Origin: a virus
Length of the DNA: 64,000 bases
Reading direction: 5' to 3' (one strand)
Virus record (IMG/VR): IMGVR_UViG_3300023276_000007
Span: 32,001 to 96,000 of that record
Below the pieces are notes generated by a model. The model did not search any database and had not been told where the DNA came from. It was given only the letters and a program-made list of their open reading frames with translations. Numbering within the stretch: position 1 is the first letter of the stretch; the number at the start of each line of letters is the position of its first letter. The translations under genes were made by a program, and so were the position numbers. Shown here piece after piece: positions 9,477 to 48,017 of the stretch.

Positions 9477-12400
9477 GTGACTTATGTAAAGCCACAAGTT
9501 AAAGTATTTCAAGAGTTTCAAGCCGCTCCGGAAGCTGTCGTTCAGAACCTGAACGCGTTCGTATTCGGACCGCACTATCAACTCTTTAGATACGCAGAAT
9601 CCTCTGAGAAAGCTTTAGTTAGCTTAGGGGATTATGATAAAGATAACGACACAGATTACTTGTGGCCTAATCAGCCGGCATTGTCTGTCGTTGACCAATC
9701 TTTCACCAAACTTTACGCAGACGATGCGCTTTTAAAGTATATCAGCTTTGCTGAGTCAGCGGTTAACCCGTTGGTTCTTACAAGTGCTAGTGTACGGAAT
9801 AAGCTTAGAGCTGCTCCAAGAATAGGTGCTACTACCTCTGCGGGTAACATTGACGTCACAGTCAGTGGTGTTCACAATGGTGGCGCAAATCTTCCGGAGA
9901 GCTATTACGTCTATCCTGCAGAAAGTTTCATTATCGGCTCAGCAGCCGGTGAATTAAATTATATTACGACTGACGGACTTAAAGGATCTATTGCAGTTCC
10001 TGCAGATGCTACGTTAGCTAACAAGGTTGTAGAAGGCCCGGACGGAGTCGCTTTAGACTTTGACCTTACTGGATTGGCAGTTAACGCTCCAAGACAGATT
10101 GTCGTGGCAGGTGCTTCATCAAGCTTCACACTTACACAGTTGAAGAGCAGAATACCTTCACACATTGCAGATGCAGAAGCAGCCGACGCTCTTAGAGTAA
10201 CGGTAGCAGATGCAGCACTCTCGGTTACATATAACCCAGGAACAAGCAATGAACTCTCTGTCAGCTTCGACATTGGCGGCGGTGGTGACTCAGTCGCTGC
10301 GGCTAGAGCTGCTGTTGTTGCAGTTACAGACATTCTCGAAGATTGGGAAGTAAGTGATATCTCTGGCGACGGACTCGATGCAGTTACTACTGTAGAAGAC
10401 CAAGACGCTGCAGACCTTGTTGCTGCCACTACTAACATCTTAGATGATTATGCGTTCTACACAGTATTCGCTAACTCAATTATCTTTAAGACTGAGAATG
10501 GGTTCAACCGTTCAGCTGGTCTTTTCAAAGACGTCGAAGTCGGTGACAGAATACGTCACGTCGTAACTCCAGTCAGCACAGGTGTCCCTGAAGAAGTCTT
10601 CAGCACAGTTGTTGGTTTCGAGCCAGACATCCTTAACGCTACAGTTTCTGACCAAACACCTGCCGACGACAACGCAGAGAACCAACTAAGCACAGATTTA
10701 AGTGCTGGTGATTCTTCCGTCCTAGCTGGTGGTGGTGATAATCAGAACACTGGACTTCTTGTAGGCGGTAACGCAGCAATCTATCTTCTCGATCAGACTG
10801 CTACTTACGATGACGCTTTCGGAGATCAATCACAAGGTGTAAGCGATCTAGACATCACAGTTACGATCGTAGCAGGCGGAGTTGCCACTAGTGGTAATGT
10901 CACTGCTAACGTCTCTAATGCTTCAGGAACGTACAACCGTACAGGTGTTCCAATAGTTGCAGATGCTAACTACCCTGATGGTAGTATCTATATCGGTAGC
11001 AACATGGTTCTCGCCTTTGACGCTACAGGTGATACTTCTGGATCAGGCGGTGGACCTGACAGAGAATTCAAAGCTGGTGACAGTTATGAAGTATCTGGAG
11101 TCCTTACCCCAGTTAACGCTGTTAACAATCTTATTGTCGAGGGTTCTTACTCTGGTCAGCAAGATACTACTTACAGACTAGAAGTTGTTCGTGGCGGACT
11201 TTTCGATAGAACAGTTGTTGCTCAGCCAGGTGTTAACTACTTCGGTAGAGGCCATAACGCTGTCTACGCTAATACAGTTATTACTTCTGCAGGTCAGCCT
11301 GCTGATACAGAAACCCTCACATTAAATGATGGGTTTAACAGTGTTGTCTTCGAGTTCGATAACAATGCTACTGTTTCTGGTACTAACGTTGCTGTAGTTA
11401 TCGGTGGAACTGCCGCAGACACACTAACTAACTTACTAGCAGCTATCCAAGGAAGTTCTCTTGATGCTCAGGCAATCGAGACTGTCTCTGGTACTGAGAT
11501 CACAGTTACGTCTAACAACCTAGCTAACGACCTCACTTCTGCAGGAACACCAACTAACTACTCTACAGTAGATACCGCACTATCAACTCCGACAGCCTCT
11601 ACGGTTATCGCAGCAGTAGTCGACATCTCTCAGTGGACTGGTGGTGATCTTGATGACGAGTATCGTCTAGTTGTTACTAAAGCAGGTGGTAACCTTGTTT
11701 CGACTGAGTTCGCTCTTGAGTCTAACGCTGGTGATAACCAGAACGGTATTTCCTTCCCAGCCTTCGCTACATCTGTAGACGTCGGTATCAAAGGACTTGC
11801 AATCACTCTTACTGATGGTGGCGCTGTTAACCCAGCCTTCGCTGTAGGTGAGACTTTCGTTCTAGACTTGAGACTCTCAAGACCTAAGCTTAAGATTACA
11901 GACTCTGCAGGTATCGATCAGCAGACTAACGTTGTAGTTGCAGATGGTGACATCATTAACGTCGGACTTAACGGCGTAACTGTTGAATTCCCTTCTAACA
12001 CCAACTCTAACGGTGGAATCGACATTAACGGCGGACTAAGCTTAGGCGACGTCTGGACTATTGAAGCTACTGCAAAAGCAAACGGACCTCTTAAGACTCT
12101 TGTTCTTAGTGAGCCTGTTTCTGATAACGTCGCAGCTGCAATCGACTCAGCAGGAGTTCCGGTACCAATACCTGACCTTTTCGCTATCGACCTGTTCTTG
12201 TTTAGCAACTCAGTCACTATCCCAAGTGAGCAGCGTGATCCTAACGTAGCCGCTGGTTTCTTTAACTGGCAAGGTATTGCAGCAAGCTTGACATCTAACT
12301 CTGGAATAACACTCCAGGATAGCAGATGGGTAGACCCAAGTGACAGTTCTATGCCTTACCTTGAATTATGGCAAGGTTCACTTTATGTAGAGTACAGAGC

Positions 12401-13715
12401 ATTACTCAGAGAGTATACTAGCTCAATCTTCTCTATATCTAACATTGACGATGTGGTCAGTTCACTCGGTCCAATTGTTCCAGACAACCCACTAGCTCTA
12501 GGTGTTTACAAAGCACTACAGAACAGTGCAGATGCTACCGTGTATTTCATGGGAGTTGAATCTGATGATGTTGCTGGATACTCTAAGGTCCTAAGTAAAG
12601 CTACTCTTTCTGATAAGCTTTACAGTCTCGTACCTCTTACGTTCGACGATACAATCCACGGATTGGTTGATGCGCATGTTGACGAGATGTCCACAGAAAA
12701 TCGTAAGAGATGGAGAATAGCATTCCTCGCAGCTGAGACCAGCTTCGAAAACGCAATCCTTTGGGGTGGTAACCATCCTACTAATGGAGTGTGGAACGCT
12801 ACTATCACTGACGATACACGAGCTGTCGGTACTCAATACACAAGAGTTGAGTTCACAGAGTTCGCAAACCTACTAGGTACTGTTGCAGTTGGCGATGAAA
12901 TTCGTTTCAACTTCGATATCGATGCTTGGGGTAACGAGACTCACACGTCAGCTGTCGTAGCAGAATTGGAAAGTAATCAGGTTCTTTACCTCGATGCCGC
13001 CCAGCCAGCCGCGATCACAACTGCAGTGAAGATGGAAATTTACCATCCTCTAAGCACAAGTGAGCAGGCTTCTAAACTTGCAGAAACTTCCGCAGCTTAC
13101 GCCGACAGAAGAATGTATGCAGTTTACCCAGACGTACTGTTTAACGAAGGCGTTGCAGAACCAGGATACTTCGCAGCAGCGGGTGTAGCCGGGTTAGCAA
13201 GCTCAGTAGTTCCTCAGCAAGGGTTAACAAACACTGAAGTAGCAGGGTTCGATGACGTTCCAGCTATCTACAGCATCTTTAGTGAAGATGACCTTAACAC
13301 TATGGCCGAGGGTGGTACATTGATCGTAGCTCAAGAGCTACCAGGTGGTCCGGTATTTATCCGTCACCAGATCTCTACCAACCAACGTAGCGGTGTTCTT
13401 GCTAAGACTGAATTGTCAATGGTTAAAAACTTTGACTCCATCAGTTACTACTTCGCTAACAAACTGTCCCCTTACATTGGTAAGTATAACGTAACTCCAG
13501 CACTTGTTGACCACCTCCGCACAGAGATTCTGTCTGGTATCAACTTCTTGAGTTCATTTACAGGTGTAGGTCTTCTTAGCCCGCAGGTCATTAAGGAAAA
13601 CAGTGAGATAGTTCTCATTCAGCAGCACCCAACGCTCGCTGATACGATTATCGCCAATGTGAACCTGAACTTACCAGCGCCGCTTAACGTAATCGAACTA
13701 CACTTAGTAGTATAA
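9477..13715 (+). CDS. Contractile tail sheath protein with large inserted domains
   Basis: N-terminal YVKPQVKVFQEF..FVFGP; C-terminal sheath core (AAGVAG..PQQGLTN, GGTLIV, IRHQIST, PAPLNVIELHLVV); GTG start with SD AAGGAG. Confidence 0.85.
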   Translation: MTYVKPQVKVFQEFQAAPEAVVQNLNAFVFGPHYQLFRYAESSEKALVSLGDYDKDNDTDYLWPNQPALSVVDQSFTKLYADDALLKYISFAESAVNPLVLTSASVRNKLRAAPRIGATTSAGNIDVTVSGVHNGGANLPESYYVYPAESFIIGSAAGELNYITTDGLKGSIAVPADATLANKVVEGPDGVALDFDLTGLAVNAPRQIVVAGASSSFTLTQLKSRIPSHIADAEAADALRVTVADAALSVTYNPGTSNELSVSFDIGGGGDSVAAARAAVVAVTDILEDWEVSDISGDGLDAVTTVEDQDAADLVAATTNILDDYAFYTVFANSIIFKTENGFNRSAGLFKDVEVGDRIRHVVTPVSTGVPEEVFSTVVGFEPDILNATVSDQTPADDNAENQLSTDLSAGDSSVLAGGGDNQNTGLLVGGNAAIYLLDQTATYDDAFGDQSQGVSDLDITVTIVAGGVATSGNVTANVSNASGTYNRTGVPIVADANYPDGSIYIGSNMVLAFDATGDTSGSGGGPDREFKAGDSYEVSGVLTPVNAVNNLIVEGSYSGQQDTTYRLEVVRGGLFDRTVVAQPGVNYFGRGHNAVYANTVITSAGQPADTETLTLNDGFNSVVFEFDNNATVSGTNVAVVIGGTAADTLTNLLAAIQGSSLDAQAIETVSGTEITVTSNNLANDLTSAGTPTNYSTVDTALSTPTASTVIAAVVDISQWTGGDLDDEYRLVVTKAGGNLVSTEFALESNAGDNQNGISFPAFATSVDVGIKGLAITLTDGGAVNPAFAVGETFVLDLRLSRPKLKITDSAGIDQQTNVVVADGDIINVGLNGVTVEFPSNTNSNGGIDINGGLSLGDVWTIEATAKANGPLKTLVLSEPVSDNVAAAIDSAGVPVPIPDLFAIDLFLFSNSVTIPSEQRDPNVAAGFFNWQGIAASLTSNSGITLQDSRWVDPSDSSMPYLELWQGSLYVEYRALLREYTSSIFSISNIDDVVSSLGPIVPDNPLALGVYKALQNSADATVYFMGVESDDVAGYSKVLSKATLSDKLYSLVPLTFDDTIHGLVDAHVDEMSTENRKRWRIAFLAAETSFENAILWGGNHPTNGVWNATITDDTRAVGTQYTRVEFTEFANLLGTVAVGDEIRFNFDIDAWGNETHTSAVVAELESNQVLYLDAAQPAAITTAVKMEIYHPLSTSEQASKLAETSAAYADRRMYAVYPDVLFNEGVAEPGYFAAAGVAGLASSVVPQQGLTNTEVAGFDDVPAIYSIFSEDDLNTMAEGGTLIVAQELPGGPVFIRHQISTNQRSGVLAKTELSMVKNFDSISYYFANKLSPYIGKYNVTPALVDHLRTEILSGINFLSSFTGVGLLSPQVIKENSEIVLIQQHPTLADTIIANVNLNLPAPLNVIELHLVV

Positions 13716-38477: not shown

Positions 38478-39017
38478 ATGGGAAAACCGATGTATCAGCT
38501 TGATGAAGACATTAGAAGGGTAGACCACAATAAGTGGCCAAAGCGCTTGGTGTGCGGAAATTACCTATCTTTAAAAAAGATGACCTTCCAAACTAGAGTA
38601 GTTGGATATAGGGCGGAGATTATTAGAGAGTCTGATGGTCAATGCCTAGCTAAACTATATAAGAATGGAAAGATTACAGTTTTCCCTGGATACTACTGGG
38701 ACGGGCCTAGTGGGCCTACTGTGGACACCGTGGCTTTTGTTATTGCTTCACTACCTCACGACATATTTTATCAAATGCTGCGAGAAGACTTACTTATAGA
38801 CGTAAGTAACTATGTAGCATTCCCAGAACCTTATTATGAAGAGTTTGAAAAAGTTAGAAGGTGGGCAGATGATACTATGCGTGAAGTTAACATAAAGAAT
38901 GGTATGACTAAGTTTAGGGCGTATTATACATATAAATTTGTACGCTGGTATGGCGAAGAAAGTGCCTTATCACGGTATGTTAAAGACTACAATGAATATT
39001 GGATGAATCACGGTTAA
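38478..39017 (+). CDS. DUF1353-like protein
   Basis: VFPGYYWDGPSGP...ASLPHDIFYQ...ADD..R...Y.FVR..G. Confidence 0.65.
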   Translation: MGKPMYQLDEDIRRVDHNKWPKRLVCGNYLSLKKMTFQTRVVGYRAEIIRESDGQCLAKLYKNGKITVFPGYYWDGPSGPTVDTVAFVIASLPHDIFYQMLREDLLIDVSNYVAFPEPYYEEFEKVRRWADDTMREVNIKNGMTKFRAYYTYKFVRWYGEESALSRYVKDYNEYWMNHG

Positions 39018-39027
39018 CGGATAAATT

Positions 39028-41190
39028 ATGGCACGACAACCTTTTGAGTATGGCCCCGATTGTGATGGCCCTGATGTAGATATTAACATAATACCTACAT
39101 CTTTCCCATTGTGTGATGAAGTCGTCTTTGAAGATCCTGACTTACTACCCACCTGCACCGACTTTGAGACTGTAGATTTTATAGTTCCCCCAGTCTGCCC
39201 ATGTTTCCCTGAACGTATGGGTCTTACTGATAACTCGAATGCAAGTATTGCTTGTGGCGGGCCTCTACCTTCAATAACCTTTGATGCAGCTATCGTTAAC
39301 GTAGCACCGGACGACTGCTGTGCTCCAGAGTTTAAGCTTGATATACAGTTAGATATACAAGTACCTTGTGTAGGTGCTGTCGGAGGCTGTGCCGCTATAG
39401 TTGGTCAAGTTGACATCAAAATTGATGAAGGTCCGCTTGGATGGTTCTTTGATTGGGAAAAATGTATCGATGACCAAGGTAACATTATAAACGACCCCTG
39501 CTGTATTCGGCTAGTGGGTGAGATGTTTATACCTTGTATAGACGGTATAACATTTAAAGTTGAACATAATATCCAAGAGACCGGTGCAGTAGATATCCCT
39601 ACCATCGAGGAGTTTACTATAGAAGCGTCTGATGACGTTCCATGTGAATACGATGTAGTATTCGACATGCTAGTTCCTTTACCAGAGGACCCTACAATAC
39701 CTATAAGCCCTACAGACCCAAATATACCACCCGGCCAGAACTGCTGTAATGGTGTAGGTTATTGTCCCGACGAAGGTACGTTTAGCGACCTAGGAAAAAT
39801 GAAAACAGAGACTATTTCGGTCGTCACCAATATTACCTGTGATCTGGAAGGTAATTTAACTGTGGAGAGGACAGAACTTGAGTATGTTTGCGGGCTCCTT
39901 AAAGATTTCAGGATAGCTGGGAACGACGCGATTCCCTGCGCTGGGGCTCAGTCGTACAATGAGGATTGCTGTCCAAGCACTACGACGACAGATCCGGACT
40001 ACCCACCACCAACTACAGAGCCAGGTGAGGGCCCCTATGGCCCGTATATCCCGCCAGAAACCTGTCAGTGTCGGTGTGACAAATATTACGTGTGTGACAA
40101 AGAGACAGGGAAGACAATCCCAGACCTCTATGTTGAGGTTTACGACCTGTCCGGCGATGGTAGCTGTGCTTACCGTATTGTAGATGGTGACAGTGTAGAC
40201 GAGAATAACAACGCGGTAATTATGCACGAAGGCCTAGGATGTCCAGACCCTGACGAAAATATATCTAACGGTTCTACTACGTGGGTTCTAGCGTGTGAAC
40301 CCTGTAGTGATTGGCCGGATAACAGTACCACGACAACTACTACTACCACGACAACTACTACTACACCGCCTATCATCATCGATGAGAAGTACTATTGCGT
40401 ACAGATCGGTACCGGTGCTCCGAAGCAATGCGTTATCGGTGCAGCACTAGTTCCAGGATCACCAATCTCAGCAGGACCTTTCGATAGTGCGTCTGAATGT
40501 GCAGCAAACTGTAATACAAACAGCTACGAGTATGAAGAGTGCCCTGCCTCGACAACAACCACAACCACGACGACGACAACCACAACCACGACAACCACGA
40601 CAACCGCGACAACCGCACCTCCTATGGCGGCGGCTTGTGGTACTGACAATGGTCACCCAACTATGCTAGTCACTATGACTTGGACAGGTGGCCCAGCTAC
40701 TCGTGATTACATGGGATGTAATGACTGGGAGTCAGGCCAGCAGCGCGTCTTAAATGCCGATACCTATGACCGGTACCAGAACACCATGGGTGGTTGCCTA
40801 GGTGAAGAAGGTGAATATTGGAGAAAGGGTGCAGACAGTGACGCATTTAACATGTCAGGTTTCGTAGATTTCTTCGGAGGATTTTTCTGGCAACTTAAGA
40901 ATGAATATAACGGCGTTGGAGAATTGAACCATGGTACAGCAGCTATTGATGGTTACGTTTATGATAGCCTCTCTGCGTTCTCACCAGGGCCAGGCGCGTT
41001 TTACCCTTTCGGTAACTCATTCCTAGACGGCCCTTTTGGTGGAAATACCGCCTTCCCTCCGCCGTCCACAGGCATGAGCGGGTGTTTAACCGGGGCATAC
41101 CTCGGAGATCTTAAATCTGCACAGCTCAGCGGTAGCGTGACGTTCGCTAACGGTGTTACGGTGACGTGGGAACAAGGAACAGGATGGTAA
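39028..41190 (+). CDS. Cys-rich virion protein with poly-Thr tracts and variable C-terminal domain
   Basis: Dense Cys; T13 and T18 tracts; C-terminal HPTMLVTMTWTGG...SGSVTFANGVTVTW. Confidence 0.6.
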   Translation: MARQPFEYGPDCDGPDVDINIIPTSFPLCDEVVFEDPDLLPTCTDFETVDFIVPPVCPCFPERMGLTDNSNASIACGGPLPSITFDAAIVNVAPDDCCAPEFKLDIQLDIQVPCVGAVGGCAAIVGQVDIKIDEGPLGWFFDWEKCIDDQGNIINDPCCIRLVGEMFIPCIDGITFKVEHNIQETGAVDIPTIEEFTIEASDDVPCEYDVVFDMLVPLPEDPTIPISPTDPNIPPGQNCCNGVGYCPDEGTFSDLGKMKTETISVVTNITCDLEGNLTVERTELEYVCGLLKDFRIAGNDAIPCAGAQSYNEDCCPSTTTTDPDYPPPTTEPGEGPYGPYIPPETCQCRCDKYYVCDKETGKTIPDLYVEVYDLSGDGSCAYRIVDGDSVDENNNAVIMHEGLGCPDPDENISNGSTTWVLACEPCSDWPDNSTTTTTTTTTTTTTPPIIIDEKYYCVQIGTGAPKQCVIGAALVPGSPISAGPFDSASECAANCNTNSYEYEECPASTTTTTTTTTTTTTTTTTTATTAPPMAAACGTDNGHPTMLVTMTWTGGPATRDYMGCNDWESGQQRVLNADTYDRYQNTMGGCLGEEGEYWRKGADSDAFNMSGFVDFFGGFFWQLKNEYNGVGELNHGTAAIDGYVYDSLSAFSPGPGAFYPFGNSFLDGPFGGNTAFPPPSTGMSGCLTGAYLGDLKSAQLSGSVTFANGVTVTWEQGTGW

Positions 41191-41194
41191 ACTT

Positions 41195-42211
41195 ATGAGT
41201 AGCTTATTTTTTAAAGACGACCACGGTCAATTTATCAAACACGGCAACAAATGCTACACGAAGGTAGGTGCCTCTCAGGTTATGCCCGACGTTACAACAG
41301 CCCCGGATGGTGGGTCTTCTTTTGTTGATTGCGATGATTGCAACTCTGGTACTACGACCACTACTACGACCACTACTACGACAGCCTTATCCGGGTTATC
41401 ATTTGGGCAAACCAACACTCCTGCAGAAGGCGACCCAGAAAGTACAGTAGTTGGCGACTTAACACCTACCGGCGGTACAGGCCCGTTCACGTATGCAATG
41501 AAAGCAGGGGCAGGTGATGGTGACAACGGTAGTTATAAGATTGTAGGATCACAGTTACAGTTAAGCGCGGCACCTAGTATCTCGGAACCGACCGACAGTA
41601 TACGAGTAGAAGTTACCGATAGCCTAATGGCCACCTTTGACGACACCTTCTCAGTTGATGTATACCCAACAACAGGATCTATGACCGTTGAACTAGCAGA
41701 AGGTTCACCGCTATACGACGACGCCTCTCCTGGTGAGGACGTAGGTGAAGTATCTGCAGGAACTAACTTAGGCGACATAAACGCTGCCAATGGTAATCCA
41801 TCCACACGACTAGTTTACGTATCAGGACCGGAAGTCTCCTTCTTAGGTAAGGACTGGAGTCCTAACGATTACGGCGAGCTCTATACAGACGCAGTTCCGT
41901 ATTCAGTGCCAGACCAGCACGAGTGGGGTAGTGATACACCTGCCAACCCTGGTTTGTATATGCACGACTATCACGAAATGCCTTATGTAGGTGATTATGT
42001 GTCTCGGGTATCTTTCCGTATAGATGCAAGTAACCAATTAGACATTACTAACCAGACAACAGGTGGTACTATTGATAATAGCGTCGGCGTGACCTCTGGT
42101 AACGATCCAAACTTATTAGTACCAGATGGAACCATCGACACAGCCGCTTTTCAGGAAGTGACTTTTGCTAACGGACAAACCTGGAAGTGGCAACAGGAAT
42201 CTGGATGGTAA
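41195..42211 (+). CDS. Poly-Thr + cadherin-like domain virion protein
   Basis: T11; cadherin-like VVGDL..FTY..GAGDGDN..IRVEVTD; half-domain; C-terminal VTFANGQTWKW. Confidence 0.65.
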   Translation: MSSLFFKDDHGQFIKHGNKCYTKVGASQVMPDVTTAPDGGSSFVDCDDCNSGTTTTTTTTTTTALSGLSFGQTNTPAEGDPESTVVGDLTPTGGTGPFTYAMKAGAGDGDNGSYKIVGSQLQLSAAPSISEPTDSIRVEVTDSLMATFDDTFSVDVYPTTGSMTVELAEGSPLYDDASPGEDVGEVSAGTNLGDINAANGNPSTRLVYVSGPEVSFLGKDWSPNDYGELYTDAVPYSVPDQHEWGSDTPANPGLYMHDYHEMPYVGDYVSRVSFRIDASNQLDITNQTTGGTIDNSVGVTSGNDPNLLVPDGTIDTAAFQEVTFANGQTWKWQQESGW

Positions 42212-42253
42212 GTATGTATAACTTAAAAACAATAAAACTATAGAGGAATTAAC

Positions 42254-42841
42254 ATGGCCATTACATATACAATAGAAGCAGACCCTACCGCAGGCGGAAA
42301 CGATGCGAATAACGCAGACTTTGACATAGAGAATCCAGACGTACTGGAGCTGTCCTCTAATGCACCTTTAGCAGGCGGTAGTTATAAAGTTACAGTAAAA
42401 GCTGTTGATGGCGTATCTGGTGAGTTTGGCTATGGCTTCTTTACGGTAGTAATCAACCCTAGAATCACAGCCCTAACACTGAATCAGACTAACGTACCTA
42501 TCGTTGGCGATTCTGCAGGTACTCTTGTTGGTGACCTTCAAGTTACTGGCGGTACTGCTCCGTTCACGTTTGCTTTAGTAGCAGGTGCAGGAGATGGAGA
42601 TAACGGTAACTATCAAGTAAACGTTGCTGATATTGAAGTAAAGGCTGCGGCTGTCTTGACAGACCCAACTGACGCAATAAGAGTAGAAGTTACTGATGCG
42701 GCGGGTGACACGTTTGAGCAAGCACTCACAGTCAACGTACAACCAGTAACAGGAACTCTGACAGTTATATTGACTCTAGGATCTCCACTATTCGACGACG
42801 ACAGTCCTACAACAGACGTCGGTACAGTAAGCGCGTCTTAA
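42254..42841 (+). CDS. Cadherin-like protein (half + full + half domain)
   Basis: SD GAGG; FALVAGAGDGDN..IRVEVTD..FEQALTV; N-terminus nearly identical to next ORF. Confidence 0.7.
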   Translation: MAITYTIEADPTAGGNDANNADFDIENPDVLELSSNAPLAGGSYKVTVKAVDGVSGEFGYGFFTVVINPRITALTLNQTNVPIVGDSAGTLVGDLQVTGGTAPFTFALVAGAGDGDNGNYQVNVADIEVKAAAVLTDPTDAIRVEVTDAAGDTFEQALTVNVQPVTGTLTVILTLGSPLFDDDSPTTDVGTVSAS

Positions 42842-42866
42842 CCTAGCGCAGACAAAGGAAGCGTAA

Positions 42867-44711
42867 ATGGCTATAACATATACAATAGCAGCAGATCCAA
42901 CGGCGTCGGGAAACGACGCCAATAACTTGGACTTTGAAATAGAGAACCCAGACGTACTGGAGTTATCTGCTAACGCCCCTTTGACTGCCGCCACCTATAA
43001 GGTAACGGTAAAAGCCGTTGATGGTGTATCTGGTGAATTTGGCTACGGCTTCTTTGACGTAGTAATCAACGCGGCTGTCACAGCGCTATCCCTTAATCAA
43101 ACAAACACCCCTCAGGCGGGTGACCCAGTAGACACTTTAGTAGGTGACCTCCAAGTTACAGGGGGAACTGCTCCTTACACGTTTGCTTTAGTAGCAGGTG
43201 CTGGTGATGGTGACAACACACATTACCAAGTTGATGGTTCTAATATAGAGTTAAGTGCCTCTGGCGGCACAACAGCCGGAACTGATGCAATAAGAGTAGA
43301 AGTTACCGACGATAAAGGCTATACGTTTGAACAATCTTTAACTGTTAATATAGCCGTTGCTCCGACCACGACCACTACGGCCGCCGCTACTACGGCACCT
43401 CCAGGACCACTAGCCTGTGGAACCCCTAATAGCGACCCTACTATGATCGTTACTATGTCCTGGACGGATGTTGATGTAACCAAGAGTTACCTAGGGTGTA
43501 CCTGGACTAATGGGGAAACTAAAGAATTATATACCACCTTCTATCAGGCAGTGGTTGGATCGCTGGAAACGTGGCGTAGAGATGCAGGACCAGACCCACA
43601 ACTGTTTCATTTACACGGTAATGAATATTATCCGGGGACAGCCCCCTCCCTCTACGAAACCATATTGGGAGGAGCTAGTATCGGCGTAGTATATCATACT
43701 AATTATAGACTTCAGATCTTTAAGGATTCAACTTTTACAGGATCCTCTGGCAATGTAGGAGTAAGTGCGTCCTCCCCGACAGCGGGTGCTCTAGTTACGG
43801 GTGCCCCTATAGCCCCAAGTCATAAAAGTGGTTCGGTCACTTTCACGAATGGCATCACCGTAAGTTGGGGGGAAGGTAACTTATGGCCACCACCGATTAC
43901 GGATATAACCCTTAACCAGACTAATACACCGACAGAGGGTGACCCAGTAGCTACTTTGATTGGTGACTTAACACCGACAGGTGGTACTGCATCATTTACG
44001 TATGCACTGGTAGCTGGTACCGGAGACACTGATAACTCTCATTACCAAATAACCGGCGCTAACCTAGAGTTAAGTGCCTCTGGTGGCTCAACATCCTTAA
44101 CAGACTCAGTACGTATAGAAGTGACTGATGCGACTGGACGTAAATTCGAGAAGGCCTTTACTGTGACAGTCGACCCCGTACCTATGGCAAGCCCTTGTTT
44201 ACCAGACCTCGGACATCCGTCTATGCTAGTAACACTGTCCTGGACAGGAGGACCAGCCACTAGGACATTCTTAGGGTGTACTGATTGGGCACCAGGACAA
44301 CAGCGCGTAGTGAACGCAACTGGCTATAACTTAACTTACACGCCGACCACCGCAGTATCTGGCGTTAATTCTGCTGGATGGAATGCTGCCGGCGGTGGCG
44401 ACGGCGACCTTATTAGATTCGGAGGGACTACCCTTCTAAGCTCATTCTCTAGTAGACAAGCTGGTAGCGTACGGTTTAACGGTATAGAGGGTGTCATCGG
44501 TGCCCCTGCCGACCCAACCTTCTCAATCTTTCGAGTTGACTTTAAATCCTTTACTGGCTACAACGGGAGCTTCAACAACTTAGTTACGGCAGGGTTCAGT
44601 CCTACTAAAACTAATGTCGGCGTAGGGGTACCTCTAGACGCCAGTAGAAAGAGCGGCTCAGTTACCGATGTAAACGGTATTACGTATAGCTGGCAACCTA
44701 ACGGCTGGTAG
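42867..44711 (+). CDS. Cadherin-like adhesin with Thr-rich linker and two variable domains
   Basis: Two full cadherin-like domains, PTTTTTAAATTAPP linker, two P(T/S)M.VT.SWT domains. Confidence 0.7.
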   Translation: MAITYTIAADPTASGNDANNLDFEIENPDVLELSANAPLTAATYKVTVKAVDGVSGEFGYGFFDVVINAAVTALSLNQTNTPQAGDPVDTLVGDLQVTGGTAPYTFALVAGAGDGDNTHYQVDGSNIELSASGGTTAGTDAIRVEVTDDKGYTFEQSLTVNIAVAPTTTTTAAATTAPPGPLACGTPNSDPTMIVTMSWTDVDVTKSYLGCTWTNGETKELYTTFYQAVVGSLETWRRDAGPDPQLFHLHGNEYYPGTAPSLYETILGGASIGVVYHTNYRLQIFKDSTFTGSSGNVGVSASSPTAGALVTGAPIAPSHKSGSVTFTNGITVSWGEGNLWPPPITDITLNQTNTPTEGDPVATLIGDLTPTGGTASFTYALVAGTGDTDNSHYQITGANLELSASGGSTSLTDSVRIEVTDATGRKFEKAFTVTVDPVPMASPCLPDLGHPSMLVTLSWTGGPATRTFLGCTDWAPGQQRVVNATGYNLTYTPTTAVSGVNSAGWNAAGGGDGDLIRFGGTTLLSSFSSRQAGSVRFNGIEGVIGAPADPTFSIFRVDFKSFTGYNGSFNNLVTAGFSPTKTNVGVGVPLDASRKSGSVTDVNGITYSWQPNGW

Positions 44712-44713
44712 TT

Positions 44714-45211
44714 ATGGATAATCACGGAGTGACGATACATCTCTACGGGTACCCATGCTCCGGTAAAACTACGATAGGTGGTTCGTTAGCTAAAGCATTA
44801 GGTAGAACTATAATCCTAGATGGCGACTATGTAAGAAAACATATAAGCAAAGACTTAGGATTTTCTAAGAAGGACCGTATAGAGAACGCCCGCAGAATAG
44901 GTAGCTATACCTCCCTATTAAACGACCAAGGGTTTAATGCGGTAGTATGTACAGTAGCTCCTCATAAGAAGTGTCGAAGACTAATACGCGACCACGTCAA
45001 GTACTACACCTCTGTGTTTATAGACACACCTTTAAAGGATTGTATAATGCGTGACACTAAAGGTATGTACAAGAAGGCTGTGTCCGGAGAGATACAAAAT
45101 TTTACAGGAGTACATTCTTTTATAGATAGAGGTACACCCGACATCGTAGTAACACCTGGGCCAGTACATCTTCAAGTCCAGTACATAATTTCACAATTGG
45201 CTGGAAATTAA
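44714..45211 (+). CDS. cysC: Adenylyl-sulfate (APS) kinase
   Basis: P-loop GYPCSGKTT; LDGDYVRK..SKDLGFSKKDRIENARRIG; RDTKGMYKKA..GEIQNFTG. Confidence 0.93.
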   Translation: MDNHGVTIHLYGYPCSGKTTIGGSLAKALGRTIILDGDYVRKHISKDLGFSKKDRIENARRIGSYTSLLNDQGFNAVVCTVAPHKKCRRLIRDHVKYYTSVFIDTPLKDCIMRDTKGMYKKAVSGEIQNFTGVHSFIDRGTPDIVVTPGPVHLQVQYIISQLAGN

Positions 45212-45265
45212 GTACTAACTGTTTATACTAACTACACTAATACGAAAACAAAAAAGGTACTAACT

Positions 45266-46390
45266 ATGTTGAATATCGTAAGCGGTTGTCCTCGCTCTGG
45301 GACTAGTCTATTAATGAACGTCATGCTCTCCATCTTTGGTGAAAAAAACATTATGGGTGGTGGCAAGCCCAACCTTGACTTTGACTACGACGCTGAGCTT
45401 GCTAAGCTAAGCAACAGAGAACAGGCTATGGTTTGGTCTCAAGAGAGAGCCTTAGCTGCAAAAGGCCAGACGAGAGAAAAGAGGTTGGAGATACAAGCGA
45501 AAACTATGGATCTTAACCCCAACGGGTTCTTCGAGTGTCAGTACAGCGTTCAAGGTATTTCCTATAACTACCCAGACCGCGAGCAACTTAAAAAGTATGT
45601 TAGCGACGGCGGGGATAAACTATGCATGAAAATAGTCTCCAGTGGTCTGCGGGTTAGTGACCCAAGGTTTATTGGGAAGGTAGTCTACCTTATAAGACAT
45701 CCTAGGTCTGTAGCTAAAAGCCAAGAAAGGCTACGTACGCAGCTTGATATGCTTTTTGAATCAAACCCTGGTTATGAGGATATGAAGCAAAAGATGGTTA
45801 TACATTCCCCGCGTATGTATATCAACTCTACAAGAGCAGCTTCCGAGTTTTTCCTAGAGAATCCAGACATACCTGTTCATCCATTACACTACGACGAGCT
45901 CATTGCTACTCCTGAGAAAGTTATTAAAGACTTAGCGGGATTCTTGGGTAAGAACAAAAAAACCGTATGGTCTAAGGCTAAAGGTATCGTAGATCCTAAG
46001 TTAAAGAGAAGTTACCCTGAAGATATCGAAAGTGACCTATGGGAAGACGCAGAAGAGGTTTACCGACTTTTTGATAAGCAAGACTACCAAGGCGTTGTCG
46101 ACTACCTCAAGCCTATGCACAGAAACACTAATCAAGCAAACTCTAATTGGGTATGTGCACGTAACGGTATTCTGACTAACAAGGCACAGTGTACAAACTG
46201 CATCAATAATGAAACCGTAAGAACCAACTTTAAAAAAGCAGCTAACGAGAAGAAGATTGATTGGCGTAATGAGCCTTGCCTCTTTGAGTGCGGTATGAAC
46301 CTCTCCTTAGAAGACGATAAGGTACTTACCTTAGAAGAAAGCACCAAGAATAACTTCTGGAGAGCAGGTGCTGAAAGGCTGGTTAAATGA
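45266..46390 (+). CDS. PAPS-dependent sulfotransferase with Cys-rich C-terminus
   Basis: 5'-PSB motif SGCPRSGTSLLM; 3'-PB motif LIRHPRSVAKS; YDELIATP...L..FLG. Confidence 0.85.
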   Translation: MLNIVSGCPRSGTSLLMNVMLSIFGEKNIMGGGKPNLDFDYDAELAKLSNREQAMVWSQERALAAKGQTREKRLEIQAKTMDLNPNGFFECQYSVQGISYNYPDREQLKKYVSDGGDKLCMKIVSSGLRVSDPRFIGKVVYLIRHPRSVAKSQERLRTQLDMLFESNPGYEDMKQKMVIHSPRMYINSTRAASEFFLENPDIPVHPLHYDELIATPEKVIKDLAGFLGKNKKTVWSKAKGIVDPKLKRSYPEDIESDLWEDAEEVYRLFDKQDYQGVVDYLKPMHRNTNQANSNWVCARNGILTNKAQCTNCINNETVRTNFKKAANEKKIDWRNEPCLFECGMNLSLEDDKVLTLEESTKNNFWRAGAERLVK

Positions 46391-47325
46391 ACAAACTAAC
46401 CTGTATTCTAACCTTCTTAAATGAAGGTATAGAAGTCTTTAGGACGGTTAAAAGCATACGGGACAGTGTAGGGGATACTGTAGATATCTTATTGGTAGAC
46501 GACTCCAGTACAGATGGGGTGCCCTATAAAGTTGTTGCCAACAAATTTAACTGTGACTATGTGAAGTCGGATACTCGACAAGGAGTGGCTGGCGCGAGAG
46601 ATCTTGGAGTGTCTTTAGCTAAGACGCCATACTGTATACTCTTCGATGCCCACATGAGGTTCGACAAAAGAAGTAATTGGGCAGAACGAGTTGTAGAAGA
46701 AATAGAAAATAACGACAGGCGTATTTACTGCACAACTTGTGTATCCTTGTGGTATCCGTTTATAGAGCAGTCCCAAAGTGTTACCCACCAAAGAAGCACA
46801 GGAGCTTACCTAGCGACATCTTTCAAGGATAGCCACACTAGCCTTGCGGCTAAGTGGATACCGCTCAAACTAACAGGCGTAGAACCAGTTCCTTTAGTTC
46901 TTGGGGCGACCTATGCCTTCTCTGTAGAGTACTACCGTGAGTTGCGAGGTTTAGCCGGCTTGAAGTATTATGGCAGTGACGAACCTTGGATATCCCTAAA
47001 GTCTTGGGCGATAGGTGATGGCTGCGCAGTTATAACAGATGTTAACATAGGCCACCTATTCCGATCCAAGCACCCGTATCCAGCGTATGGACTAGACGCC
47101 CTCTATAATAAACTTTTTATGGCGGCTGTAGTTTTTCCTAAGAAGACTAAGTGGTTAGAGGACCTAATGAGGTTGGGCGGCCCAAAGGTAAGTAAGATGT
47201 TTAAAGAAAATGAAACTCAGTTTAGGGAAACAAGGTCTTGGTTTGCAGAAGTGGAGAAGCCCGGCTGGCGGGAGACATTCTCTCAATTGAATGGAGAATT
47301 TACTGAACAGGTAATTACGTTATGA
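46387..47325 (+). CDS. GT-A glycosyltransferase resembling polypeptide GalNAc-transferase (GT27/GT2-like)
   Basis: FLNE, RTVKSI, ILLVDDSS, GVAGAR, FDAH, YGSDE, GHLFR..HPY. Confidence 0.85.
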   Translation: MNKLTCILTFLNEGIEVFRTVKSIRDSVGDTVDILLVDDSSTDGVPYKVVANKFNCDYVKSDTRQGVAGARDLGVSLAKTPYCILFDAHMRFDKRSNWAERVVEEIENNDRRIYCTTCVSLWYPFIEQSQSVTHQRSTGAYLATSFKDSHTSLAAKWIPLKLTGVEPVPLVLGATYAFSVEYYRELRGLAGLKYYGSDEPWISLKSWAIGDGCAVITDVNIGHLFRSKHPYPAYGLDALYNKLFMAAVVFPKKTKWLEDLMRLGGPKVSKMFKENETQFRETRSWFAEVEKPGWRETFSQLNGEFTEQVITL

Positions 47326-48017
47326 ATGAAGTCTACTTAGTAAGCAAACATACTTCCTACCGAAATATGGGGCTAATGGAGCAAGAAACGTTACAGAGTG
47401 GTTTTGTAGCTGCCTTAGACGGTTATCTTGATGGACCTTTCTTAGAGTCTGGTGTAGTGCCTATGATGCAGCTATACACACCCGAAAATGGGATACCTAC
47501 GGAAGTTGTAGGAACTAACGTGGTCAGCCTTAGCTACTCTGGAAAGGTGCGGAACGCTTTAGATAAAATATTTAATTACTTCCCAGCAGACCAGGCCGTT
47601 GTGGTTAGAGTATTAGGCGCCGACCTTCTTGAAGAACTGACAGCAGATCCAGAGTTCTATGAGATTATAGAGGAGTGGGTTAGCAGGGATCGGGGCGTTA
47701 GTGTCGTCTACGACGGAGCAGTTGCTTCCCCAAACCACTTGATACCTATCTATACATTTAAAGATAAGAAACCTATCCGAAATGATGGTGGTGCGTATGC
47801 CTGCGACCTCGACTATCGATGTAAAGACTATAGCCGTAAGGATGAAAGCCATGTTTCCAGAGAAGTATATTTGAAGAGGTGGAATACTTGTATAGGCTGC
47901 CCTGCTATGAAGCAGAGCGGAAAGACCATGCAGTGCTCGCTATGCACCTGCGCAATGAAAATCAAAGCTAAATGGAAAAGTGCCACCTGCAGTGACAAGG
48001 CAAACCGTAAGTGGTAA
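47322..48017 (+). CDS. Protein with C-terminal Cys cluster (DUF6171-like)
   Basis: RWNTCIGCP...QCSLCTC..KIKA....C.....W. Confidence 0.5.
   Translation: MNEVYLVSKHTSYRNMGLMEQETLQSGFVAALDGYLDGPFLESGVVPMMQLYTPENGIPTEVVGTNVVSLSYSGKVRNALDKIFNYFPADQAVVVRVLGADLLEELTADPEFYEIIEEWVSRDRGVSVVYDGAVASPNHLIPIYTFKDKKPIRNDGGAYACDLDYRCKDYSRKDESHVSREVYLKRWNTCIGCPAMKQSGKTMQCSLCTCAMKIKAKWKSATCSDKANRKW

What the first reader, a model, noticed from the sequence alone, without database searches (positions are those of the whole stretch)
39028..48017. Candidate phage 'sulfomucin' system: poly-Thr virion adhesins next to APS kinase, sulfotransferase and ppGalNAc-T-like glycosyltransferase
Seen: three virion-type genes with Thr-rich tracts (39028, 41195, 42867) are followed, 2 nt after the last stop, by cysC, then a sulfotransferase, a GT-A enzyme and a Cys-cluster protein; the last three overlap (ATGA). 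Known: CysC makes PAPS, PAPS is the donor for sulfotransferases, and ppGalNAc-Ts start mucin-type O-glycosylation on Thr/Ser clusters. Inference: the phage O-glycosylates and sulfates its own fibre linkers, giving stiff, protease-resistant, anionic stalks. These might also mimic sulfated polysaccharides as bait for a sulfated-glycan-eating host. Phage cysC is usually labelled a sulfur auxiliary gene, but here the context points to virion modification.
Basis: partly seen in the sequence, partly recalled or inferred. Interest (0 to 1): 0.92.

Follow-up and report, generated by a model that had tools for sequence, protein, structure and literature searches.

The report
Phage fibre glycosylation and sulfation genes
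A marine phage encodes, directly behind tail-fibre genes that carry long threonine runs, an enzyme that makes the sulfate donor PAPS, a phage-only sulfotransferase and a sugar transferase related to animal mucin-starting enzymes. Related phages keep the sulfotransferase gene pressed against the same fibre-tip gene, so the phage probably decorates its own fibres, which nobody has shown.

Summary

- **Enzyme identities:**
  - APS kinase matches Pfam at 6e-38.
  - The sulfotransferase has intact PAPS-binding motifs and a confident sulfotransferase-fold model.
  - The glycosyltransferase's 15 best solved relatives are all polypeptide GalNAc-transferases (profile E 8.5e-26 to 3e-16; next family 6e-12), with the D-x-H...H metal triad invariant.
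- **New result:** the sulfotransferase belongs to a family I found only in phage contigs. In 11 of 22 loci it lies next to a gene ending in an unnamed ~180-aa "tip" domain. In about 10 more, the neighbour carries a similar C-terminal motif.
  - The conserved partner is therefore the tip domain, not poly-Thr.
  - Only 4 of 22 loci have long Ser/Thr runs and only 3 have a neighbouring glycosyltransferase.
  - The best-matched of those glycosyltransferases resemble protein-glycosylating enzymes: GT27 here, GmaR/SunS in L032.
- **Verdict:** virion-fibre modification is the best reading (about 0.45). The specific "sulfated mucin on poly-Thr" version is about 0.2. Host-surface modification remains a serious rival.

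Nothing here is biochemical. This scan has noted similar fibre-sulfotransferase cassettes on other phage DNA. I found no published report.

The parts
38478..39017 (+). Tail (fibre) assembly chaperone-like protein, 179 aa, directly upstream of the first Thr-tract gene
   Evidence: phrog_1158, 3.4e-13
39028..41190 (+). 720-aa fibre-like protein. It has Cys-rich N-terminal modules, an S+T13 tract (nt 40324-40365) and an S+T18 tract followed by ATTAPP (nt 40549-40605). A C-terminal tip domain follows (about aa 514-720).
   Evidence: Translation. Tip HMM 2.5e-23. No Pfam or PHROG family.
41195..42211 (+). 338-aa fibre-like protein with a T11 tract (nt 41351-41383). It has one repeated ~95-aa Ig/cadherin-like module. 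Its C-terminus carries only the terminal tip motif (VTFANGQTWKWQQESGW).
   Evidence: Not hit by the tip HMM.
42254..42841 (+). 195-aa protein made of the repeated Ig/cadherin-like modules. Its N-terminus is a near-duplicate of that of the next gene. It has no Thr tract.
   Evidence: Only a weak FlgD_ig hit below the cut-off.
42867..44711 (+). 614-aa fibre-like protein. Order of parts: modules, TTTTTAAATTAPP linker (nt 43365-43394), tip domain A (aa 168-341), module, tip domain B (aa 435-614).
   Evidence: Tip HMM, two domains at 3.3e-21 and 1.1e-22. BLAST to L032 and L036 tip proteins.
44714..45211 (+). APS kinase (CysC), 165 aa. It starts 2 nt after the fibre gene's stop codon.
   Evidence: PF01583, 6.4e-38, residues 5-139 of 165. 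Junction read.
45266..46390 (+). PAPS-type sulfotransferase, 374 aa, with a C-terminal Cys-cluster domain (C297, C309, C312, C338, C342). It belongs to a family found only in phage contigs.
   Evidence: PF13469 and PF00685. 264 cluster representatives in the protein library. Invariant PRSGTS and RxPxxxxxS motifs. AF2 pLDDT 91.7. VIA Z 13.8 to CurM/OLS ST and 12.4 to TPST.
46387..47325 (+). Soluble GT-A glycosyltransferase, 312 aa, ppGalNAc-T (GT27)-like. It has no membrane anchor and no lectin domain. It overlaps the sulfotransferase stop (ATGA).
   Evidence: PF00535. PDB top 15 hits are all ppGalNAc-T. D87, H89 and H223 are invariant in 15 homologues. It is the only GT2 in the record.
47322..48017 (+). 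231-aa protein of unknown function with a C-terminal Cys cluster (DUF6171-like lead). It overlaps the GT stop (ATGA).
   Evidence: phrog_13558, 1.4e-5. The Cys cluster aligns with a 138-aa protein that lies between the tip gene and the sulfotransferase in L032 (E 5e-4). Atlas lead below 0.9.

Best explanation
This is a late, co-directional module that modifies the phage's own tail-fibre tip proteins after translation.

Proposed steps:
1. CysC phosphorylates host-made APS to PAPS. The enzyme identity is shown; the step is inferred.
2. The sulfotransferase uses PAPS to sulfate the fibre proteins in the cytoplasm before or during assembly. The acceptor is inferred. It could be a residue of the conserved tip domain or a sugar attached nearby.
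3. The soluble ppGalNAc-T-like enzyme adds a first sugar, probably a HexNAc, to Thr of the poly-Thr/Pro linkers that lie directly in front of the tip domains (inferred).
4. The 231-aa Cys-cluster protein is an accessory of unknown role.

Likely benefit: charged, protease-resistant and extended linkers or tips, or tuned receptor binding.
For: 1. Gene identities and tight coupling with the fibre genes: a 2-nt gap and two ATGA overlaps, all on one strand.
2. The sulfotransferase family is phage-only in what I could search.
   - 264 cluster representatives in the protein library.
   - 23 IMG/VR loci.
   - No relative in 185,579 species genomes.
3. Its neighbour is a tip-domain gene.
   - Tip HMM hits lie directly beside the sulfotransferase in the window and in L030-33, L041 (three tandem copies), L044 (two copies), L046, L050 and L052. 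L036 joins them by BLAST.
   - Seven more loci share a second family. One member is hit by the tip HMM at 8e-6, and the C-terminal strand motif matches (hhalign 89%).
   - There were no tip hits in 109 control loci totalling 1.46 Mb.
   - Gaps are 0-20 nt or overlaps, which suggests co-expression with late structural genes.
4. In L044 the tip genes stand where siphovirus tail-tip or receptor-binding genes stand: tape measure, two genes, tip x2, sulfotransferase, cysC.
5. APS kinase recurs in 6 of 22 records that carry the sulfotransferase, and is adjacent in 4.
6. Glycosyltransferases next to the cassette are of protein-modifying types where a match exists.
   - GT27-like here.
   - GmaR/SunS-like with TPR in L032.
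   - A GT-A fold enzyme directly after a tip gene in L137.
   - L048 has a 1279-aa protein that is 57% Ser/Thr, then the sulfotransferase, then GT9, GT4, GT2/7C, a second sulfotransferase, GT8 and methyltransferases.
7. Runs of 10 or more Ser/Thr are enriched near this sulfotransferase: 5 of 270 proteins in 3 of 21 loci, plus 2 here. The control count was 0 of 993, with at least one control tract (L010) missed by the ORF filter, and the controls are unmatched.
8. Both transferases lack signal peptides and membrane anchors. They are therefore in the compartment where fibres fold.
Against: - No chemistry has been observed.
- Most loci with this sulfotransferase have no GT and no Ser/Thr runs. 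The sulfotransferase therefore does not need a phage-made glycan, and the 'sulfomucin' form cannot be general.
- The structural neighbours of the sulfotransferase do not identify the acceptor. CurM/OLS ST, TPST, Stf9, Teg12 and heparan 3-OST all fall within about 3 Z units.
- No universally conserved acidic-Tyr site is evident in the tip domain.
- Two tip loci (L137, L140) lack the sulfotransferase.
- Adjacency to receptor-binding genes is also what receptor-masking genes show.
- The wider family of this GT sits in gut-metagenome multi-domain proteins with no fibre context.
Confidence: 0.45

Rival explanations
1. Host-surface remodelling. The sulfotransferase (fed by CysC) and the GT modify a host cell-envelope glycan or glycoprotein that serves as the receptor for these fibre tips. 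This would block superinfection or stop progeny virions from sticking to debris. Such a gene travels with, and co-evolves with, the receptor-binding gene.
For: - Strict adjacency to receptor-binding-type genes is also typical of receptor-masking genes. Examples from established knowledge are llp beside the phage T5 receptor-binding gene and O-antigen conversion genes beside tailspikes.
- Cytoplasmic GT2 and sulfotransferase enzymes can act on lipid-linked precursors.
- Dedicated PAPS supply paired with a sulfotransferase is how rhizobia sulfate exported glycolipids (NodPQ/NodH, established knowledge).
Against: - Neither the sulfotransferase nor the tip family was found in 185,579 bacterial and archaeal genomes. 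These look like virulent phages, for which surface conversion pays less.
- The genes are co-directional and often overlap late structural genes.
- The GTs with solved relatives resemble protein glycosyltransferases, not polysaccharide ones.
- Long Ser/Thr tracts, which are natural O-glycan acceptors, sit in the fibre proteins themselves in 4 loci.
Confidence: 0.25
2. Direct protein sulfation only. The sulfotransferase puts sulfate on a Tyr, Ser or Thr of the tip domain, in the manner of TPST or RaxST. The GT acts independently on the Thr linkers or elsewhere. There is then no sulfated glycan.
For: - The sulfotransferase-tip pairing holds in phages with no GT.
- The PRSGT(S/T)L loop and the invariant Glu90 resemble the Sulfotransfer_3 clade, which includes TPST and CurM ST.
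- TPSTs head the Foldseek list at 8e-5.
- Tyr43 and Thr162 of the tip domain are nearly invariant.
Against: - By VIA, TPST (Z 12.4) ranks below CurM/OLS ST (Z 13.8), and many classes lie within about 3 Z units.
- The conserved Tyr has no consistent acidic flank.
- The tip model is only moderate (pLDDT 67).
Confidence: 0.15
3. Unrelated cargo. cysC is a sulfur-assimilation auxiliary gene. The sulfotransferase and GT are morons with small-molecule or DNA targets that merely sit in a variable region beside fibre genes.
For: - Phage cysC is usually annotated as an auxiliary metabolic gene (papers listed).
- Regions beside fibre genes often collect cargo.
Against: - The record has no cysH, no ATP sulfurylase and no thymidylate-synthase-type base-modification gene, though it is about 57% complete.
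- Conserved sulfotransferase-tip adjacency across about 20 divergent phages is not what random cargo gives.
- cysC recurs with the sulfotransferase.
Confidence: 0.07
4. Non-catalytic role. The sulfotransferase-fold protein is a fibre assembly factor or a virion adhesin that binds the fibre tip, like gp38 encoded downstream of gp37 in T-even phages.
For: - Its position directly after the fibre gene is the usual place for fibre chaperones and adhesins.
- Its C-terminal Cys-cluster domain could be a docking module.
Against: - PAPS-binding residues are invariant across 40 divergent members.
- A PAPS-making kinase travels with it.
Confidence: 0.05

Closest known systems
Polypeptide N-acetylgalactosaminyltransferases (CAZy GT27; e.g. 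human GalNAc-T2 and T10, PDB 2ffu and 2d7i)
   Same: - The similarity covers the whole catalytic domain (profile positions 5-272).
- The D-x-H plus distal His metal triad is present.
- An altered Gal/GalNAc-T motif is present (YGSDE in place of WGGEN).
- The 15 best PDB hits are all GT27.
- Plausible acceptors of the mucin type (TTTT..APP) are encoded next door.
   Different: - It has no membrane anchor or stem and no ricin-type lectin domain. A short helical tail follows the catalytic domain instead.
- It would work in the cytoplasm of a bacterium.
- Identity is about 25%.
- Donor and acceptor are untested.
- More distant relatives are fused to a second GT2 and a LanC-like domain.
Virus-encoded virion glycosylation: mycobacteriophage capsid and tail glycosylation by phage GTs (my own knowledge; PMC11256854 mentions the idea for phage Maravista), and giant-virus fibril glycosylation clusters
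   Same: The virus carries its own glycosyltransferase or glycosyltransferases beside or among structural genes. The presumed acceptor is a virion surface protein.
   Different: This module adds a PAPS kinase and a sulfotransferase. I found no report of sulfation for any phage virion. The GT is GT27-like rather than the GT types described there.
Protein O-glycosyltransferases encoded next to their substrate: GmaR-flagellin in Listeria, Aah/AIDA-I and TibC/TibA, SunS/ThuS with glycocins
   Same: A cytoplasmic GT-A or GT9 enzyme is encoded beside the Ser/Thr-rich or repeat protein it modifies. The L032 neighbour of the same cassette hits GmaR (1.3e-14) and SunS. L048 has GT9-type genes.
   Different: Those are bacterial surface or secreted proteins, not phage fibres. 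None is coupled to sulfation.
Dedicated sulfation systems: TPST1/2 and Xanthomonas RaxST with RaxPQ (protein tyrosine), rhizobial NodH with NodPQ (glycolipid), CurM/OLS sulfotransferase domains
   Same: - A PAPS-dependent sulfotransferase fold with the PRSG(T/S)(T/S)L loop and the RxxxxxxxS 3'-phosphate motif.
- A dedicated PAPS-supply gene travels with the transferase.
- CurM/OLS ST and TPST are the nearest structures (Z 13.8 and 12.4).
   Different: - An extra conserved C-terminal Cys-cluster domain.
- Found only in phage contigs.
- Only the APS kinase step is phage-encoded here.
- The acceptor is unknown.

Membership tests
CAZy GT27 (polypeptide GalNAc-transferase) | Best sequence similarity is to the GT27 catalytic domain over its whole length | tested here: met
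   - phmmer: 15 top PDB hits are all ppGalNAc-T, 1.7e-10 to 9e-6, residues 4-240.
- Profile A1: 8.5e-26 to 3e-16 over positions 5-272; the next family scores 6e-12.
CAZy GT27 (polypeptide GalNAc-transferase) | Mn2+ triad: D-x-H plus a distal His in the (V/I)GH(V/I/L)(F/Y)R motif | tested here: met
   D87, H89 and H223 are invariant in 15 homologues. They align with DSH and VGHI(F/Y)R of GalNAc-T9 and T10.
CAZy GT27 (polypeptide GalNAc-transferase) | Gal/GalNAc-T motif WGGENxE | tested here: inconclusive
   The aligned segment reads YGSDEPW. Y195, G196 and E199 are invariant. Acidic residues are kept, but the Trp and the second Gly are replaced. No PF02709 hit.
CAZy GT27 (polypeptide GalNAc-transferase) | Type II membrane anchor and C-terminal ricin-type lectin domain | tested here: not met
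   The protein is 312 aa and starts directly with the first beta-strand of the GT-A fold. It has no hydrophobic N-terminus and no lectin domain. I therefore call it GT27-like and do not file it as a member.
CAZy GT27 (polypeptide GalNAc-transferase) | Transfers GalNAc from UDP-GalNAc to Ser/Thr of polypeptides | not testable with these tools
   Needs an enzyme assay.
PAPS-dependent sulfotransferases (PF13469 / PF00685) | 5'-phosphosulfate loop and 3'-phosphate motif, in a sulfotransferase fold | tested here: met
   - The PRSGTS loop (residues 9-14) is at least 90% conserved across 40 homologues. In the R144-x-P146-x5-S152 motif, R144, P146 and S152 are invariant.
- Pfam hits are above the cut-offs.
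- AF2 pLDDT 91.7.
- Z 13.8 (rmsd 3.2-3.6 over 187-188 residues) to CurM/OLS ST.
Tyrosylprotein sulfotransferases (TPST / RaxST) | Specific relationship to TPST rather than to other sulfotransferase classes; acidic-Tyr acceptor | tested here: inconclusive
   TPSTs head the Foldseek list (8e-5). By VIA they score Z 12.4, below CurM/OLS at 13.8 and within about 1-2 of many classes. No consistent acidic-Tyr site in the tip domain.
APS kinase (CysC, PF01583) | Family profile match over the full domain with P-loop and LDGD motifs | tested here: met
   6.4e-38 and 130.6 bits against a cut-off of 21.1, positions 2-143 of 152. GYPCSGKTT and LDGDYVR are read in the translation.
Virus-encoded virion glycosylation systems | Virus-encoded GT plus a virion protein that carries the glycan | not testable with these tools
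   The GT is present and lies beside structural genes. No virion chemistry is available for this uncultured phage.
Fibre tip domain - sulfotransferase cassette (defined here) | A sulfotransferase of family A2 encoded directly beside a gene ending in the tip domain (A4/A5) | tested here: met
   In the window, tip B ends at 44708. cysC follows, then the sulfotransferase at 45266. The same pairing holds in L030-33, L036, L041, L044, L046, L050 and L052.

The most novel reading that the evidence does not exclude
Many uncultured, apparently virulent phages sulfate their own receptor-binding fibre tips with a phage-only sulfotransferase family. They bring an APS kinase where the host's PAPS supply is short. 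This marine phage adds a minimal, cytoplasmic, ppGalNAc-T-like enzyme that starts mucin-type O-glycosylation on poly-Thr linkers. That would be the first sulfated virion modification, and the first mucin-type O-glycosylation machinery, described in a bacterial virus.
Probability: 0.3. Interest if true: 0.85.

Novelty: new variant of a known kind. Interest (0 to 1): 0.7.

Why it matters
- Sulfated or glycosylated phage fibres would be a new layer of host-range determination and virion stability. Sequence-based receptor-binding predictions and phage engineering ignore it at present.
- Phage cysC genes, now counted as sulfur-cycle auxiliary genes in ocean viromes, would need re-reading as donor supply for a structural modification.
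- A 312-aa soluble GT27-like enzyme and a compact sulfotransferase with defined neighbouring substrates would be handy tools. They would also give a bacterial-virus view on the origin of mucin-type glycosylation.
- The unnamed tip domain gives a concrete, testable substrate candidate.

Tried and rejected
- **No hits in reference phage sets.**
  - INPHARED phages gave nothing for the 9-kb DNA (megablast), the sulfotransferase or the GT (tblastn).
  - A single-protein scan of IMG/VR with the sulfotransferase also found nothing. Alignment-based scans worked.
  - The contigs of the closest relatives could not be read. These are GT P0002 at 61% with sulfotransferase P0025 at 62%, both on a 65,577-bp contig, plus P0006 and P0026.
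  - The metagenome scan did not return them either.
  - The direct test of 'poly-Thr travels with cysC/ST/GT in sister phages' is therefore still open.
- **Complex prediction** of the sulfotransferase with tip domain B gave no verdict (score 0.00). This is not evidence either way.
- **Tip-domain model** (pLDDT 67): no Foldseek match at E <= 0.001, and best VIA-wide Z was 4.3. No fold could be assigned.
- **Genome scans** of bacterial and archaeal genomes with the sulfotransferase and tip alignments found nothing. The host therefore stays unknown.
- **No RNA holder was listed** for the stretch.
- **Promoter and terminator scan** was at chance level.
- **No PDB relative** for the L048 GT9-like protein or the L137 GT-like protein.
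- **w47322:** the Atlas gave only sub-threshold leads, DUF6171-like at 0.89 and STAS-like at TM about 0.35.
- **Phage DNA glycosylation** was considered and set aside. There is no thymidylate-synthase-family gene in the record and the genes sit inside the structural block. The record is incomplete, so this reading is weakened, not excluded.
- **Mini ATP sulfurylase**, a lead from earlier scan notes: no PF01467-type gene in this record.

Full report
**What is there**

The window is part of a single 106,765-bp virus record, about 57% complete by CheckV. Nearly all genes are on the + strand. The region is a tail and baseplate block:
- a tail-sheath-like gene at 9477 and a baseplate wedge at 24683;
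- a tail (fibre) assembly chaperone family protein at 38478-39017 (phrog_1158).

Four genes of no known family follow, at 39028, 41195, 42254 and 42867. After them come:
- a 165-aa APS kinase (PF01583, 6.4e-38);
- a 374-aa sulfotransferase (PF13469 and PF00685);
- a 312-aa GT2-type glycosyltransferase (PF00535);
- a 231-aa protein with a C-terminal Cys cluster.

The fibre gene ends TAG, then TT, then the ATG of cysC. The last three genes overlap by ATGA.

The Thr tracts are real. They are S+T13 and S+T18 in the 720-aa protein, T11 in the 338-aa protein, and TTTTTAAATT followed by APP in the 614-aa protein. They are encoded with mixed ACN codons. Runs of 10 or more Ser/Thr occur nowhere else in the record. 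Two of the tracts, followed by Pro-Pro, lie directly in front of a C-terminal domain discussed below.

**The enzymes**

*Glycosyltransferase.* It is clearly ppGalNAc-T-like.
- With the single sequence, the 15 best solved relatives are all polypeptide GalNAc-transferases over residues 4-240.
- With a profile of 15 homologues they score 8.5e-26 to 3e-16 over positions 5-272. The next entry scores 6e-12, and ordinary GT2 enzymes match only the first ~90 residues.
- D87, H89 and H223 are invariant and align with the GT27 Mn2+ triad.
- The WGGEN motif is altered to YGSDE.
- There is no membrane anchor and no lectin domain, so I call it GT27-like and not a member.
- It is the only GT2 in the record. 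That fits an initiating, single-sugar enzyme.

*Sulfotransferase.*
- The PRSGTS loop is at least 90% conserved. R144, P146 and S152 of the R-x-P-x5-S motif, and Glu90, are invariant.
- The model is confident (pLDDT 91.7).
- Its nearest structures are CurM/OLS ST (Z 13.8), TPST (Z 12.4), Stf9 and Teg12, with heparan sulfate sulfotransferases near Z 11. This confirms the fold and says little about the acceptor.
- A C-terminal domain with conserved Cys297, 309, 312, 338 and 342 has no counterpart in those structures.

*APS kinase.* The record has no cysH, no ATP sulfurylase and no thymidylate-synthase-type gene. The kinase therefore does not look like part of an assimilation set, within the limits of an incomplete record.

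**What the relatives show**

*The sulfotransferase is a phage family.* Nothing similar is in the reference phage collection. The family itself is large: 264 cluster representatives, 154 of them below 1e-30. IMG/VR holds 23 loci. A scan of 185,579 bacterial and archaeal species genomes found none.

*Its constant neighbour is a fibre tip domain.* I clustered all neighbours. The one recurrent partner is a gene whose product ends in an unnamed domain of about 170-190 aa.
- The domain has a conserved start (C..DP.M.vTVtG..GT.NWCG.TW.LP..SG..K..CP..Y).
- It has a conserved last strand (G.T..W..G.GW).
- Its core is variable.
- An HMM of this domain hits the gene directly beside the sulfotransferase in the window (three domains) and in L030-33, L041 (three tandem genes), L044 (two), L046, L050 and L052. 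L036 joins by BLAST.
- Seven further loci have a second upstream family. One member is hit by the tip HMM at 8e-6. The last strand aligns at 89% hhalign probability, on 25 columns only.
- Four more loci show the motif by eye.
- The HMM found nothing in 109 control loci totalling 1.46 Mb.
- Gaps between the two genes are mostly 0-20 nt or overlaps.

*The tip genes are tail-tip genes.* In L044 the order is tape measure, two genes, tip x2, sulfotransferase, APS kinase. That is where siphoviruses keep tail-tip and receptor-binding genes.

*The tip family is also phage-only.* It was absent from the bacterial genomes scanned. It has no Pfam family and no recognisable fold at the quality of model I obtained.

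*APS kinase travels with the sulfotransferase.* It occurs in 6 of 22 records that carry the sulfotransferase and is adjacent in 4.

**What does and does not travel with poly-Ser/Thr and GTs**

Long Ser/Thr runs lie beside the sulfotransferase in the window and in three other loci:
- L036, with a poly-Ser tract directly before a tip domain;
- L038;
- L048, with a 1279-aa protein that is 57% Ser/Thr.

A glycosyltransferase lies beside the cassette in three loci:
- the window (GT27-like);
- L032, where a 572-aa protein has GmaR, the Listeria flagellin O-GlcNAc transferase, as best solved relative (1.3e-14), followed by the peptide S-glycosyltransferase SunS and a related glycosyltransferase (7msk), with a TPR part;
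- L048, which has GT9, GT4, GT2/7C, a Sulfotransfer_2 enzyme, GT9, GT8 and two methyltransferases.

In L137 a tip gene is followed by a GT-A fold enzyme instead of a sulfotransferase. This rests on an Atlas lead (0.97 by features, TM about 0.7).

Different phages have thus placed different modifying enzymes directly after tip-domain fibre genes. Where a solved relative exists, it is a protein glycosyltransferase.

On the other side, most loci with this sulfotransferase have no GT2 and no Ser/Thr runs. The wider family of this particular GT sits in gut-metagenome proteins of the form GT2 + GT27-like + LanC-like, with no fibre, cysC or sulfotransferase context.

**Reading**

*Best reading.* The phage modifies its own fibre proteins: PAPS from CysC, sulfate transfer by the phage-only sulfotransferase, and sugar transfer to the Thr linkers by the GT27-like enzyme. 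I put this at 0.45.

It cannot be the general role of the sulfotransferase, whose conserved partner is the tip domain. I give it about 0.2.

*Main rival* (0.25). The enzymes alter the host's receptor, which would also explain linkage to receptor-binding genes. Three points count against it: the absence of both families from bacterial genomes, co-orientation and overlap with late structural genes, and the protein-type GTs.

*Other rivals.* Direct protein sulfation without a glycan, unrelated cargo, and a non-catalytic role are listed with their tests.

*Untested.* The idea that sulfated stalks mimic polysaccharides as bait is untested. The host is unknown. The stretch is held by seawater metagenome runs from several studies.

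**Novelty**

Full-text searches found no report of a phage sulfotransferase tied to fibres or of sulfated virions. Hits for 'sulfotransferase' in phage papers were PAPS reductases. Phage cysC appears in auxiliary-metabolic-gene papers.

Virus-encoded virion glycosylation is known in mycobacteriophages and giant viruses. This rests on my own knowledge; PMC11256854 mentions the idea. I therefore class this as a new variant of a known kind.

Earlier notes of this scan describe fibre-sulfotransferase, APS kinase and GT cassettes in other phage genomes. They agree with what I derived here from IMG/VR loci, but they are unchecked AI notes and not independent evidence. The particular additions here are the GT27-like enzyme next to poly-Thr linkers and the definition of the tip domain as the conserved partner.

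Noticed in passing
window 40567-41187, 43368-43889, 44169-44708; also L030-L033, L036, L041, L044, L046, L050, L052, L137, L140: An unnamed fibre tip domain of about 170-190 aa, found only in phage contigs. It has conserved ends and a variable core, and is often present in 2-3 tandem genes. It has no Pfam family and no fold match. It is probably a receptor-binding module.
   Followed up: partly
window 47322-48017 and L032:9513-9929: The C-terminal Cys cluster of the 231-aa protein (C..C...C..C.C...C) aligns with a 138-aa protein that lies between the tip gene and the sulfotransferase in L032 (E 5e-4). There is a DUF6171-like lead. Both loci also have a GT beside the sulfotransferase.
   Followed up: partly
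window 45212-45265: The 54-nt spacer between cysC and the sulfotransferase holds three copies of TACTAAC (45213, 45226, 45258). The motif is not enriched across the window (20 seen against 15 expected), so this is a local cluster. It could be a regulatory or RNA-processing site.
   Followed up: partly
L001, L054, L061 and many of L053-L120: More distant relatives of the GT27-like enzyme, mostly from gut metagenomes, are multi-domain proteins: GT2 + GT27-like GT + LanC-like domain (about 800 aa), or GT + LanC-like (about 550 aa). L061 has three such genes in tandem. Their function is unknown.
   Followed up: partly
L048:6058-20175: A 159-kb phage record carries a 1279-aa protein that is 57% Ser/Thr. 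Genes for the same sulfotransferase family, GT9, GT4, GT2/7C, a Sulfotransfer_2 enzyme, a second GT9, GT8 and two methyltransferases follow. This is a much larger candidate fibre-glycan factory.
   Followed up: partly
L041:9902-11248: This sulfotransferase homologue carries the C-terminal Cys-cluster domain twice (second copy 2e-18 to profile positions 283-353).
   Followed up: no
window 42254-42400 and 42867-43010: The 195-aa and 614-aa genes begin with near-identical N-termini (MAITYTI.ADPTA.GNDANN...), which indicates a recent local duplication. The repeated ~95-aa module in these genes has no Pfam match apart from a weak FlgD_ig hit.
   Followed up: no
window 9477-13715: A 1412-aa protein matches the tail sheath family only in its last ~150 residues (phrog_279, 4e-14). 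That is unusually long for a sheath protein.
   Followed up: no
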